DNA of 13,315 nucleotides from Planctomycetota bacterium (GTDB taxonomy: Bacteria > Planctomycetota > SZUA-567 > H5-PLA8), in NCBI GenBank assembly GCA_045863855.1, contig BTVV01000153.1:1-13315 (forward strand). Direction: 5' to 3'. Under the pieces are notes generated by a model that was not told the origin of the DNA, did no database searches, and saw only the letters and a list, made by a program, of their open reading frames with translations. The position numbers were made by a program, and so were the translations under genes. Position 1 is the first letter of the stretch. Every line of letters begins with the position of its first letter. This document shows, piece by piece, positions 3,406 through 12,038 of the stretch.

Positions 3406-3672
3406 ATGATTCAGGTGCTCAAGGCAATTGCCGTAGGTCTAGCTTATGTGCTGAACGGAATGTTTTTAGTGATGCTACTAGTTTCAGAGGAAGATCGGTC
3501 CGGAGAGTTGTTCTTCATGAATCACGGCCATAAGGTGTATATCCTGGGACTGAGAAGCAATGAGGCACCATATTTCATGGCCCTATCCATTTTTATTTTT
3601 ATGATCCAAATTGCTTTCCTGATTTGGGTTATCTTGCGGGAAAACGGCGGCAGGCTAATTCGAGACTACTAA
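3406..3672 (+). CDS. Small hypothetical membrane protein (2 predicted TM helices), low GC
   Basis: 88-aa ORF filling the leuC-leuD gap, with two hydrophobic stretches (IAVGLAYVLNGMFLVMLLV; YFMALSIFIFMIQIAFLIWVIL). Hand count gives ~43% GC for 3361-3690. No obvious SD. Confidence 0.6.
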   Translation: MIQVLKAIAVGLAYVLNGMFLVMLLVSEEDRSGELFFMNHGHKVYILGLRSNEAPYFMALSIFIFMIQIAFLIWVILRENGGRLIRDY

Positions 3673-9515: not shown

Positions 9516-9851
9516 ATGTCGCGCCGCCCGTCCCGTGCCAGCGAGTCTGCTTCGCCCGAGCGGCGCAAGTCGCGCGCGCTGGATACGATGCCGGAATTGG
9601 CCACCAACGACTTCCGCCGCACGGGGCCATCGGGGATCGTACTGATGATTCTGGCCGGCGTGCTCGTGGGCGGCGGCTTGGGGTTGCTCGCGCTGCCGAG
9701 TATTCTCCGGCAAAAGCCCCAAGTGCCCGCCGAACCGCCCGAGGCGAAAAAGTCGACAGATCCCTCGGGCAAGACGGAATCCAAGTCCGAAGCGCCCGCC
9801 GAGTACGATCCCGACAAGCTTTATCCGCACACCAACCGCCTTAAACCGTAA
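9516..9851 (+). CDS. Small single-pass membrane hypothetical protein
   Basis: 111-aa ORF with a basic N-terminus, one hydrophobic helix with GxxxG motifs (IVLMILAGVLVGGGLGLLAL) and a Pro/Lys/Glu-rich C-terminus. Fills the gap between the hydrolase and the terminator. Start uncertain (alternative MPEL...). Confidence 0.65.
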   Translation: MSRRPSRASESASPERRKSRALDTMPELATNDFRRTGPSGIVLMILAGVLVGGGLGLLALPSILRQKPQVPAEPPEAKKSTDPSGKTESKSEAPAEYDPDKLYPHTNRLKP

Positions 9852-9886
9852 AGCGATTTCATTGGATGGCCGCGGATGCTCAGCAG

Positions 9887-9928
9887 CCAAAAGCAACGCC
9901 GCGCGGATCCCGAGGAACCGCGCGGCGT
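9887..9928 (-). terminator. Intrinsic terminator of the histone gene (possibly bidirectional)
   Basis: Perfect 11-bp inverted repeat ACGCCGCGCGG (9896-9906) / CCGCGCGGCGT (9918-9928). On the minus strand it is followed by TGCTTTT, 26 nt after the histone stop codon. It lies between convergent genes. Confidence 0.75.
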
Positions 9929-9954
9929 ATGGCCTGCCTTTAGACCTCTAGCGG

Positions 9955-10173
9955 CTACAGATCGCCGGGGCGCACCGTCGAGCGTTTGTTGGCCTTCGCG
10001 CGATCGACGGCCTTATCCAAGCAACACGCCACGCACGCACTCACCGCGTCGATCAATTCGCCGCTGCTCTTCAAGCCCTTCGACTTGACGTAGTTCTTCA
10101 CCTTGCTGCCCACGACGAGGCCTTCCGTCGAAGCCTTGCCTTTGCCGGCTGCCTTTTTGCCCTTCTTCGCCAT
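9955..10173 (-). CDS. Bacterial histone-fold protein (72 aa) with Lys-rich N-terminal tail
   Basis: Sequence: MAKKGKKAAGKGKASTEGLVVGSKVKNYVKSKGLKSSGELIDAVSACVACCLDKAVDRAKANKRSTVRPGDL. It shows helix 1 'LVVGSKVKNYVK', loop 'KSS', a long helix 2, the L2 motif R64-S-T66-V-R-P-G-D71 (RxTxxxxD) and a truncated helix 3. This matches the pattern I recall for Bdellovibrio Bd0055-like and face-to-face prokaryotic histones. ATG at 10173 has AAGGAGG 7 nt upstream; 14 K + 3 R versus 6 D/E. Confidence 0.9.
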   Translation of the reverse strand: MAKKGKKAAGKGKASTEGLVVGSKVKNYVKSKGLKSSGELIDAVSACVACCLDKAVDRAKANKRSTVRPGDL

Positions 10174-10180
10174 CGTACGT

Positions 10181-10187
10181 CCTCCTT
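10181..10187 (-). promoter_or_regulatory. Consensus Shine-Dalgarno of the histone gene
   Basis: Plus-strand CCTCCTT = AAGGAGG on the minus strand, 7 nt before ATG 10173. Confidence 0.85.
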
Positions 10188-10259
10188 GGAACGATACACT
10201 TGGGGAGCGGTACTCGCTTTCGCACGCCTCATGCGCGACGATCGGAGTGAACTGGCCGA

Positions 10260-10287
10260 AATGTAGGTTTTTTCCTGCATCCGTCAA
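10260..10287 (-). promoter_or_regulatory. Candidate sigma70 promoter of the histone gene
   Basis: Minus strand TTGACG (10287-10282) - 16 nt containing an A6 tract - TACATT (10265-10260). The -35 overlaps the stop codon of the upstream gene. Confidence 0.55.
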
Positions 10288-12038
10288 GGCTGCGGGTTCC
10301 GAATTATGCGGATTTCGCCGCTAATACGGCCCGATTCCGAACTTTCCTCGACCGGTACGAGATGCAACGAAACGGAACCCCAAAGGCTCGCGGCTCTCCG
10401 GACCAGTTCCACGGCCGCCCCTTCGTCGGGGTAGCGTTCCAGAAACTCCGCCGGGCCGATCTCGTCGCGCAGTTCTTCCAGCCAAAGCTGTGCAAAAACA
10501 GCCGCCATGGGCGCCATTCGCTGGCCGTCTGTTCGAAATTCGAAGTAGGGCGCATCGGGCGTCGAATCGTTCGGCGCCCATGCGGCGGGCATCGGTAGCA
10601 TTGCGAAAGGCCCCGCGTCGCTGATCCAGCCCAAGGCCTGGGGCGCAGCGACCCAGGTCATGCGCGTGTAGTTACCCTTCACGAGTACGTAACGCTCCGC
10701 TTCGCCGTGCCGCAAGCGCAACACATAAGGCCGGTCGGCCTCCTCGGGAGCCGTTCCGTCGAACAAGCCGCGCCAGCGGACCCGTGAAAGCTCGCCCAGA
10801 GCCATGCGTGCTTCCGGCGTGGCCGTGAATGGAATGGAGGCCAGTGCGCGCGGTTGCACCACGGCCGCACCGGGCGGCGGTTCAACGATCCGCACCCGCA
10901 AGGTTTTGCCGAAGGAAGGCCAAAGCTGTTCGTTCAAGTCGATACCGGCCTCCGACAGATAGACCAAGCGTGCTTCCCAGCGGCGCCGGTCCTTGTCGTT
11001 TCGATAGGCCTCGAAGAGATTGCGGCGAAAAAGCTTCCCCACGTCCAAAGGAATACGGGCCTCCAGCAGGGGTGGTGTGTCAGGCGGCAATCCATCGCTC
11101 AAGAACGGCGCCCCTGCGCCGCGAGCGGGTAGCGCGCCCAGCCAAAAGCCTTCGGCCCGCAGCGTATCGCCTGACTCGTCGGAATCGACGCGCAGGCGAA
11201 GCTGGATCAGGTCAGGCAGCCGTTCCAGCCCGAAGATTTCCGGCCAGCTAGGGGGTCCCAGCAGGGCATGCGCTAAATTCAGCTCGCCTTCCAATGCCAC
11301 CGCGCGCGGCCGAACTTGCACCTCGGCCACCGCAGCGGGCTCTAACGGAGCCGCCCGAGTAGACACGGTTTCTCCCGGTCCGGGGCGCGCACCATGAAAT
11401 CCCGCGGCCAGGAGCCCGCCGCCCAAGTCGTAGAAATGCGGTTCATGGGGTTGGGGATTGCCTAACCGCATGAGCAAGTAAGCGCCCAAGCGGGTCAGCG
11501 CACCGCGTCCGCCTTGCACGCGAACGAGAAAGAGCACAGGCGCCTTACCTCGCTCGCCGCTGGTATCGCGCGGGGGCGCGGAGACGCATGCCACGATCTC
11601 GGAGCCGGTGAGGAACCGCAGACCGCGCCGAGTCGGCGAGATGAAGTCCCGCAACAGCGCCGGTTTCTTGGCCCAGCGCGCGCGCAGGTCGTCGAGTTTT
11701 TCCTGCCAGCCCGTGAGACGCTGCAATTCCGGGTCGTGCCAAACTCCGCGCAGGCCGGGATGCGCTTCCATGGCGCGCCAAATCGCATCGCCGTTGCGCA
11801 AACGCACCAGAGCCAGCGCATCCGAAGGCACGTAGGCGTCCACCGGTCCGCCGGCCGTGGGCGCAAATCCCGCCACGAAAACGCATGCCGCGGCGCTCGA
11901 AAGCAGCCAAACTACCGCCGACGCTGGTTTGAGCTTTCGCCAAAAGGAAATGCGCGGAGTGGCAACCGGTTCCACGCCGGCCGCAGCCGGTGCGGGCGTA
12001 CTTTCGGGCAGAGGGGCGTGCGCCTCGGCGTCGGCCAC
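10284..12038 (-). CDS. Membrane-anchored hypothetical protein (584 aa)
   Basis: Long ORF with a GTG start 6 nt after the pcm stop. N-terminal basic patch plus hydrophobic helix (VVWLLSSAAACVFVAGFA) followed by 'VDAYVPSDALALVRL', a start resembling DUF3352-like exported proteins (weak). Confidence 0.75.
   Translation of the reverse strand: MADAEAHAPLPESTPAPAAAGVEPVATPRISFWRKLKPASAVVWLLSSAAACVFVAGFAPTAGGPVDAYVPSDALALVRLRNGDAIWRAMEAHPGLRGVWHDPELQRLTGWQEKLDDLRARWAKKPALLRDFISPTRRGLRFLTGSEIVACVSAPPRDTSGERGKAPVLFLVRVQGGRGALTRLGAYLLMRLGNPQPHEPHFYDLGGGLLAAGFHGARPGPGETVSTRAAPLEPAAVAEVQVRPRAVALEGELNLAHALLGPPSWPEIFGLERLPDLIQLRLRVDSDESGDTLRAEGFWLGALPARGAGAPFLSDGLPPDTPPLLEARIPLDVGKLFRRNLFEAYRNDKDRRRWEARLVYLSEAGIDLNEQLWPSFGKTLRVRIVEPPPGAAVVQPRALASIPFTATPEARMALGELSRVRWRGLFDGTAPEEADRPYVLRLRHGEAERYVLVKGNYTRMTWVAAPQALGWISDAGPFAMLPMPAAWAPNDSTPDAPYFEFRTDGQRMAPMAAVFAQLWLEELRDEIGPAEFLERYPDEGAAVELVRRAASLWGSVSLHLVPVEESSESGRISGEIRIIRNPQP

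What the first reader, a model, noticed from the sequence alone, without database searches (positions are those of the whole stretch)
10129..10173. Eukaryote-like Lys/Gly/Ala N-terminal tail on a bacterial histone
Seen: 15 residues (MAKKGKKAAGKGKAS, 6 Lys, no acidic or bulky residues) precede the fold. Established: the best-characterised prokaryotic histones (HMf, Bd0055) are essentially tailless, while eukaryotic tails contain similar motifs (H2B KKGSKKA, H4 GKGGKG) that carry acetylation and methylation. Inference: a disordered, modifiable tail could give this bacterium a PTM-tunable chromatin or DNA-bridging/condensation system. The resemblance is low-complexity and probably convergent.
Basis: partly seen in the sequence, partly recalled or inferred. 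Interest (0 to 1): 0.85.

Follow-up and report, generated by a model that had tools for sequence, protein, structure and literature searches.

The report
Lysine-tailed bacterial histone, known family
This small gene encodes a real bacterial histone with a floppy, lysine-rich front tail, but it belongs to an already described family in which such tails are common, so it is a clean example rather than a new kind of protein.

Summary
A 72-aa gene (9955-10173, minus strand) starts MAKKGKKAAGKGKAS behind a strong ribosome-binding site, and the tail is predicted disordered. The protein is a face-to-face (FtF) bacterial histone: its best sequence and fold match is HLp (PDB 9QT0), it keeps the FtF tetramer residues, and relatives are Planctomycetota. 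The premise that such tails are exceptional is wrong. Schwab et al. 2024 (PMC11390915) report tails as common and mostly basic in bacterial FtF histones, and 69 of 147 homologs surveyed here carry a long basic tail; 46 of 147 are at least as long. The eukaryote-like motifs are no better than shuffles of the tail (26% and 95% score as well). Lysine positions are kept only within the genus, and similar leaders sit on this genome's SWIB and DksA-like proteins. No SET domain was found in this genome; its GNAT, Sir2 and HDAC genes are ordinary. Most likely the tail is a lineage-variable electrostatic DNA grip on a DNA-wrapping tetramer. Modification is plausible but untested; my literature searches found no test on a bacterial histone tail. 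The scan has noted this on at least 7 other genomes.

The parts
10129..10173 (-). Lys/Ala/Gly N-terminal tail, residues 1-15 (18 residues precede L19, the first conserved fold column; net charge +5)
   Evidence: pLDDT <50 at residues 6-15; no confident interface contact for residues 1-14 in the 4-copy model
9955..10173 (-). 72-aa face-to-face (HLp-type, alpha3-truncated) bacterial histone gene incl. stop codon
   Evidence: phmmer to 9QT0 E 7.4e-12; Foldseek rank 1 9qt0, rmsd 0.8 A over 56 columns, 45% identity; R58, N62, R64, T66, D71, K26 present
10181..10186 (-). Shine-Dalgarno AGGAGG, 7 nt before the ATG
   Evidence: GGAGG also before the orthologous ATG in G001
10260..10287 (-). sigma-70-like promoter consensus TTGACG-N16-TACATT (function inferred)
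   Evidence: TTGACG with a TAGAGT 16 nt further on is also seen in the otherwise diverged G001 leader
9896..9928 (-). GC-rich hairpin followed by a U-rich run between the histone and the convergent gene 9516-9851; probable terminator (inferred)
   Evidence: fold of 9880-9960(-): -43.4 kcal/mol, z -3.15, 1 of 200 shuffles as good; not called by the terminator scanner

Best explanation
A single-gene face-to-face (FtF) histone of an uncultured Planctomycetota bacterium. The fold forms a toroidal homotetramer and wraps about 60 bp of DNA without sequence specificity, as HLp does (inferred by homology). The four disordered Lys/Ala/Gly tails add about +5 each and act as a generic electrostatic grip on wrapped, linker or neighbouring DNA, raising affinity and compaction (inferred). 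Net charge and length matter, not a fixed code of sites; the tail is an optional appendage that lengthens, shortens or even turns acidic between lineages. Bulk lysine acetylation may weaken the grip, as in HupS, but no dedicated writer-reader system is indicated. Shown here: gene, start context, fold, family residues, tail distribution. Inferred: DNA wrapping, tail role.
For: Fold and sequence. FtF residues R48/K16/N52/R54/T56/D61 of the published HMM map with a constant offset to R58/K26/N62/R64/T66/D71. A 4-copy model scored 0.88 against a best control of 0.02 (mark reached by 20 of 30 solved homo-pairs and 1 of 23 single chains; runs agree in at least 88% of contacts; partner pLDDT at least 83); its second interface (57-58, 61-62, 64, 68, 70-71) matches HLp's R49, S52, N53, R55, T61. 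Like complexes are solved, so this pass may be from memory. Tail lability: of 147 homologs 69 long basic, 30 intermediate, 39 short, 9 acidic; three family mates have 10-14 residues with net +1 to +2 against 18 and +5 here; long basic tails average 48% K, 30% A, 8% G and no position after A2 holds one residue in more than 51 of 67 tails. Same kind of leader on this genome's SWIB protein, DksA-like protein and an oxidoreductase.
Against: No DNA-binding, tail-deletion or proteomic data exist for this protein. All six Lys are kept between two species of the genus despite 28 synonymous codon changes in the gene, which also fits site-specific constraint. Tail type is clustered by family (20 changes against a shuffled mean of 49), so it is not random noise. 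Among histone-bearing genomes SET domains were commoner with long basic tails (23 of 67 vs 7 of 75, p 4e-4 uncorrected; p 0.048 by family).
Confidence: 0.72

Rival explanations
1. The tail is a regulated modification platform: reversible acetylation (GNAT or acetyl-phosphate on, Sir2/HDAC off) or methylation of particular lysines switches wrapping, bridging or condensation, a bacterial parallel of the eukaryotic histone tail.
For: Six Lys conserved in the genus; genome has 15 GNAT, 1 Sir2, 1 HDAC-family matches; precedent in Streptomyces HupS with CobB1 (PMC11229371 abstract) and Asgard tailed histones (10.64898/2026.07.02.735847 passages); raw SET/long-tail association; one genome (G397, L156) has tailed histone > CoA-binding protein > SET on one strand.
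Against: No SET in G000, G001, G002 (G000 is 94% complete). GNAT, Sir2 and HDAC ring in 14, 10 and 9 of 14 control genomes, so presence is uninformative. SET is no commoner in histone-bearing genomes (45 of 193) than in the rest (60 of 208). The SET/tail link weakens with kinship: one-genome-per-family draws median p 0.20, without two families 8 of 43 vs 7 of 75, p 0.16. The G397 arrangement was not repeated: 3 of 40 relatives matched that SET, each on another contig than the histone, and no further SET, HDAC or Sir2 hit in ORFs of 118 flanking loci with single-sequence queries.
Confidence: 0.2
2. The tail is nearly neutral: a tolerated basic leader (translation-start or solubility by-product) that adds little to a fold that already binds DNA.
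For: HLp has only 9 residues before the equivalent column, its first 6-7 are unresolved, and it wraps DNA; 39 of 147 homologs are essentially tailless and 9 acidic; similar leaders occur on a non-chromatin oxidoreductase.
Against: 87 of 98 extensions of 10 or more residues are net positive; tail amino acids are conserved against synonymous change in the genus; tail type is stable inside most families (mixed in 3 of 20 multi-genome families).
Confidence: 0.07
3. The tail is not translated; the protein starts further downstream.
For: Start mis-calls are known in this family (HLp 63 vs 77 aa database variants). Codon 21 is GTG.
Against: Strong SD at M1 and no start codon before L19; codon 21 is GTC in two genus mates; 55 of 147 homologs also begin MAKK; RNA-library contigs of a roughly 97% identical relative span the tail in two studies.
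Confidence: 0.01

Closest known systems
HLp, face-to-face histone of Leptospira perolatii (PDB 9QT0-9QT2; Nat Commun 2025, PMC12701072)
   Same: Best sequence and fold match (45% identity); tetramer residues R49/N53/R55 and RD clamp R55-D62 correspond to R58/N62/R64/D71; short alpha2 and one-turn alpha3.
   Different: 18 residues before the first conserved fold column against 9 in HLp; a C47-x2-C50-C51 cluster in alpha2 where HLp has K, A, L; Planctomycetota host; uncharacterised.
Bacterial FtF histones of Schwab et al. 2024 (PMC11390915), including Planctomycetota members
   Same: Sequence signature, phylum, and a positively charged N-terminal tail without conserved sequence, all stated in sections 7-8.
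   Different: Nothing categorical; the paper did not test tails. Its Supplementary Figs 13, 19, 20 on tails could not be seen.
Bd0055/HBb bacterial dimer histone of Bdellovibrio bacteriovorus (8FVX, 8CMP)
   Same: Same alpha3-truncated fold (E about 8e-6; Foldseek ranks 4-9).
   Different: Bacterial dimers lack the FtF R48/N52 and carry RKT; this protein has R58/N62 and RST, and a tail.
Eukaryotic core histones and Asgard tailed nucleosomal histones
   Same: Histone fold plus disordered Lys-rich N-terminal tail.
   Different: About 20% identity and much weaker fold match; residues 1-20 hit nothing in the PDB at E 10 (a weak test for so short a query); quoted motifs matched at chance level; homotetramer rather than nucleosome.
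HupS / HupB, HU proteins with lysine-rich tails (PMC11229371; PMC5676037 and PMC5931751 seen only as search listings)
   Same: Functional analogue: a Lys-rich low-complexity tail on a bacterial nucleoid protein; HupS acetylation lowers DNA binding.
   Different: HU fold, long C-terminal repeat domain; unrelated to the histone fold.

Membership tests
Face-to-face (FtF) alpha3 histones | Histone fold with short alpha2 and truncated alpha3 | tested here: met
   Model helices 22-31, 40-61 and a 3-residue turn near the C-terminus; rmsd 0.8 A to 9qt0 over 56 columns
Face-to-face (FtF) alpha3 histones | Conserved R48, N52 (tetramer) and RxTxxxxD without a fixed K/R at position 55 | tested here: met
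   R58, N62, R64-S65-T66-D71 against the published list
Face-to-face (FtF) alpha3 histones | Conserved Lys on alpha1 (HMM K16) | tested here: met
   K26, also K24 and K30
Face-to-face (FtF) alpha3 histones | Predicted face-to-face homotetramer | tested here: met
   4-copy model 0.88 vs best control 0.02, second interface at 57-71 as in HLp; calibration 20 of 30 pairs, 1 of 23 single chains; may be from memory of solved relatives
Face-to-face (FtF) alpha3 histones | Tetramer in solution and wrapping of about 60 bp DNA | not testable with these tools
   Shown for HLp only
Bacterial dimer histones (Bd0055/HBb) | Lack of R48/N52; RKTxxxD motif | tested here: not met
   R58 and N62 present, S at position 65
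Eukaryotic-type histone tails (H2B/H4) | Sequence similarity beyond composition | tested here: not met
   26% and 95% of shuffles score as well; 24 of 68 and 29 of 68 other long tails too; no PDB hit for residues 1-20
Eukaryotic-type histone tails (H2B/H4) | Positionally conserved modifiable lysines across the lineage | tested here: not met
   Kept in the genus, not in the family; K11 and K13 matched in 20 and 26 of 67 long tails
Eukaryotic-type histone tails (H2B/H4) | Site-specific modification in vivo | not testable with these tools
   Needs proteomics
Eukaryotic-type histone tails (H2B/H4) | Dedicated writers/erasers co-occurring with the tail | tested here: inconclusive
   No SET found in own genus; generic GNAT/Sir2/HDAC present; SET/tail link not robust to kinship

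The most novel reading that the evidence does not exclude
Planctomycetota FtF histones use their tails as a regulated chromatin switch: reversible acetylation (and, in SET-bearing families, methylation) of tail lysines controls wrapping, bridging or condensation of the nucleoid, an invention of tail-based histone regulation in bacteria independent of Asgard archaea and eukaryotes. The natural series found here (tailless, acidic, 18-residue, 32-residue and a 46-residue H1-like tail on one fold; one histone-CoA-binding-SET gene run) would make that directly testable.
Probability: 0.2. Interest if true: 0.7.

Novelty: new member of a known kind. Interest (0 to 1): 0.2.

Why it matters
As found, it adds one more uncharacterised member to a published family whose basic tails are already on record. 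The open point is real but not special to this gene: in my searches no paper tested the function or modification of a bacterial histone tail, and the two characterised FtF histones (HLp, HTkC) are short-tailed or tailless. If tails prove to be regulated by modification, tail-based chromatin control arose in bacteria too. This protein is a usable but unremarkable test case; longer-tailed relatives are better ones.

Tried and rejected
Pfam and NCBIfam gave no histone family for the protein (only DUF5805 at E 0.17, below cut-off): library blind spot, not novelty. An extended 110-aa ORF from the TTG at 10287 was rejected: no SD, overlaps the -35 box, upstream part not conserved in G001. A second histone in the genome: not found (one match with the protein, next E 0.99; one with the profile). 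SET co-occurrence: significant raw, not robust to kinship. Histone-SET adjacency in G397: not repeated in 40 relatives. Recurring neighbours: 39 representative ORFs scanned (recurring clusters from crude ORF calls in 118 loci, plus the two L156 neighbours); apart from the L156 SET, no acetyltransferase, deacetylase, SET or reader family; clusters below the top 45 were not scanned. Cys cluster as a family feature: all three Cys in 4 of 147 homologs, so lineage-specific. 5' leader structure: not significant (z -0.45). Expression level: only contigs were available, so no level, strand or start can be read; X5 did not cover the gene; no DNA run was laid. The careful tree did not finish; the quick tree (54 columns, 11 of 140 branches starred) cannot exclude a single origin of tails. 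The search of earlier findings by sequence returned nothing. The protein-atlas and 50%-representative searches were not run.

Full report
Observation. The ATG has AGGAGG 7 nt upstream; the only other in-frame start within 40 codons upstream is a TTG without SD that is the -35 box of a promoter-like TTGACG-16-TACATT, and no start codon lies between M1 and L19. A GC-rich hairpin at 9896-9928 follows the stop (z -3.15 for 9880-9960; the terminator scanner did not call it). Neighbours are unrelated: a 584-aa ORF without Pfam match and a PCMT methyltransferase upstream, a convergent 111-aa ORF and an alpha/beta hydrolase downstream, leuCD-type aconitase-family genes further off. RNA-library contigs of a roughly 97% identical relative cover 9934-10223 and 9935-10223 in two studies and 9955-10395 in another run (3 of 4 runs laid); contigs show presence only, and DNA carry-over was not controlled. 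In genus mate G001 the first 18 codons have 6 synonymous and 3 non-synonymous changes, the fold 22 and 6; G002 differs by 5 synonymous changes only. The tail is therefore very probably translated. AlphaFold2 predicts it disordered (residues 6-15 below pLDDT 50).

Identity. Pfam and NCBIfam do not name the protein. PDB sequence search ranks HLp (9QT0, E 7.4e-12) above HBb/Bd0055 (E about 8e-6) and HTkC (3.4e-4); Foldseek gives the same top hit (rmsd 0.8 A, 45% identity), with eukaryotic histones at E 0.15 or worse. The residues that define face-to-face histones in PMC11390915 (section 7 read whole; passages of other sections) are all present: K26, R58, N62, R64, T66, D71, and no K/R at 65. A four-copy model scored 0.88 against a best control of 0.02 (20 of 30 solved homo-pairs and 1 of 23 single chains reach the mark; runs agree in at least 88% of contacts; pLDDT at least 83), with a second interface at residues 57-71 matching HLp's tetramer contacts. 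Because like complexes are solved, this shows likeness, not binding. Residues 1-14 are in no confident contact. Named relatives are Planctomycetota. The genome holds one copy beside three HU/IHF matches.

Is the tail unusual? Here 193 of 401 genomes of the phylum had a homolog. I examined the 150 listed matches (63 weaker ones were not listed) plus 3: 153 loci. Two had no start in range (one at a contig end; one, L113, has a 46-residue tail when read by hand), and four were dropped (self, one with withheld bases, one mis-started, one doublet-like); five starts were re-called by hand. Of the remaining 147: 69 long basic (at least 14 residues before the L19 column, net at least +4), 30 intermediate, 39 short, 9 acidic; 46 are at least as long as this tail, 65 at least as basic, 56 have at least 6 Lys. 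Starts are SD-based predictions, and the profile included the tail, so the listed matches may lean towards tailed proteins. Three family mates have only 10-14 residues, net +1 to +2. Tail class is clustered by family but changes repeatedly on a weak tree (20 changes, shuffled mean 49; one origin not excluded).

Is it eukaryote-like? Only in composition. Gly content is higher than the family's 8% average. In the same genome 8 of 22,964 SD-preceded candidate starts have at least 5 Lys and no acid in 15 residues; they include this histone, a stand-alone SWIB protein with a very similar leader, a DksA-like protein and a Gfo/Idh/MocA oxidoreductase. The leader is a generic appendage.

Modification machinery. 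No SET match in G000 (94% complete), G001 or G002; 105 of 401 in the phylum. GNAT (15), Sir2 (1) and HDAC-family (1) are present but also in 14, 10 and 9 of 14 control genomes. SET is found in 45 of 193 histone-bearing and 60 of 208 other genomes. Against my reading: among 142 tail-classified genomes SET goes with long basic tails (23 of 67 vs 7 of 75, p 4e-4), and by family p 0.048; but one-per-family draws give median p 0.20 and removing two families p 0.16. One genome has histone, CoA-binding protein and SET in a row (L156); this was not repeated in 40 relatives nor in 118 flanking loci.

Mechanism. Best reading (0.72): an HLp-like tetramer wraps about 60 bp; four +5 tails grip DNA electrostatically and raise affinity, compaction or bridging; sequence order matters little. 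Regulation by acetylation is a live rival (0.2) because HupS is so controlled (PMC11229371 abstract) and Asgard tails are modified (10.64898/2026.07.02.735847 passages; its supplements are closed). My seven searches found no test on a bacterial histone-fold tail; subscription journals are mostly outside the library. HTkC preprint passages (10.64898/2025.12.06.692711) name HLp and HTkC as the only characterised FtF histones.

Verdict. Correct observation, known family, known feature: new member of a known kind, interest 0.2. Eight earlier notes of this scan on at least 7 other genomes reached the same reading; they came after my own tests and are not independent evidence.

Noticed in passing
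L156:7470-8790 (G397:C33): Tailed histone (79 aa), CoA_binding_2 protein (133 aa) and a 116-aa SET protein lie in a row on one strand; not repeated in 40 relatives.
   Followed up: partly
L113 (G296:C1:2063809-2064615): FtF histone with a 46-residue H1-like tail of AKKT-type repeats, the longest seen; this genome has a SET match.
   Followed up: no
L014, L047, L051, L064, L068; P0015-P0018, P0021, P0023: A clade of FtF histones with acidic Ala/Pro/Glu N-terminal extensions instead of basic ones; possible auto-inhibitory tails.
   Followed up: no
window 10021-10035 (-), residues 47-51: C47-V-A-C50-C51 cluster in alpha2; all three Cys in only 4 of 147 homologs, in two separate families. C51 matches a dimer-core Leu of HLp; redox or metal role untested.
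   Followed up: partly
L239 (G000:C145:8407-8688, -): Stand-alone 94-aa SWIB-domain protein with a Lys/Ala/Gly leader much like the histone's; candidate second tailed nucleoid protein.
   Followed up: partly
L240 (G000:C76:4618-5274, -) and L241 (G000:C43:10204-10731, -): DksA/TraR-type protein with a long Lys/Ala/Pro N-terminus, and a 176-aa Lys/Ala/Pro-rich ORF with no Pfam match.
   Followed up: no
L143 (G305:C21:405514-406302): ORF that seems to hold two histone-like segments in tandem behind a hydrophobic leader; start and integrity unchecked.
   Followed up: no
L118, L133, L145, L100: FtF histones with 2-7 residue insertions in loop L1, some basic.
   Followed up: no
window 10284-12038 (-): 584-aa ORF without Pfam match directly upstream; kept beside the histone in five genus and family mates (8 loci, some duplicates).
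   Followed up: no
window 3406-3672 (+): 88-aa hydrophobic ORF between the leuC- and leuD-type genes, in a lower-GC stretch, no significant Pfam match.
   Followed up: no
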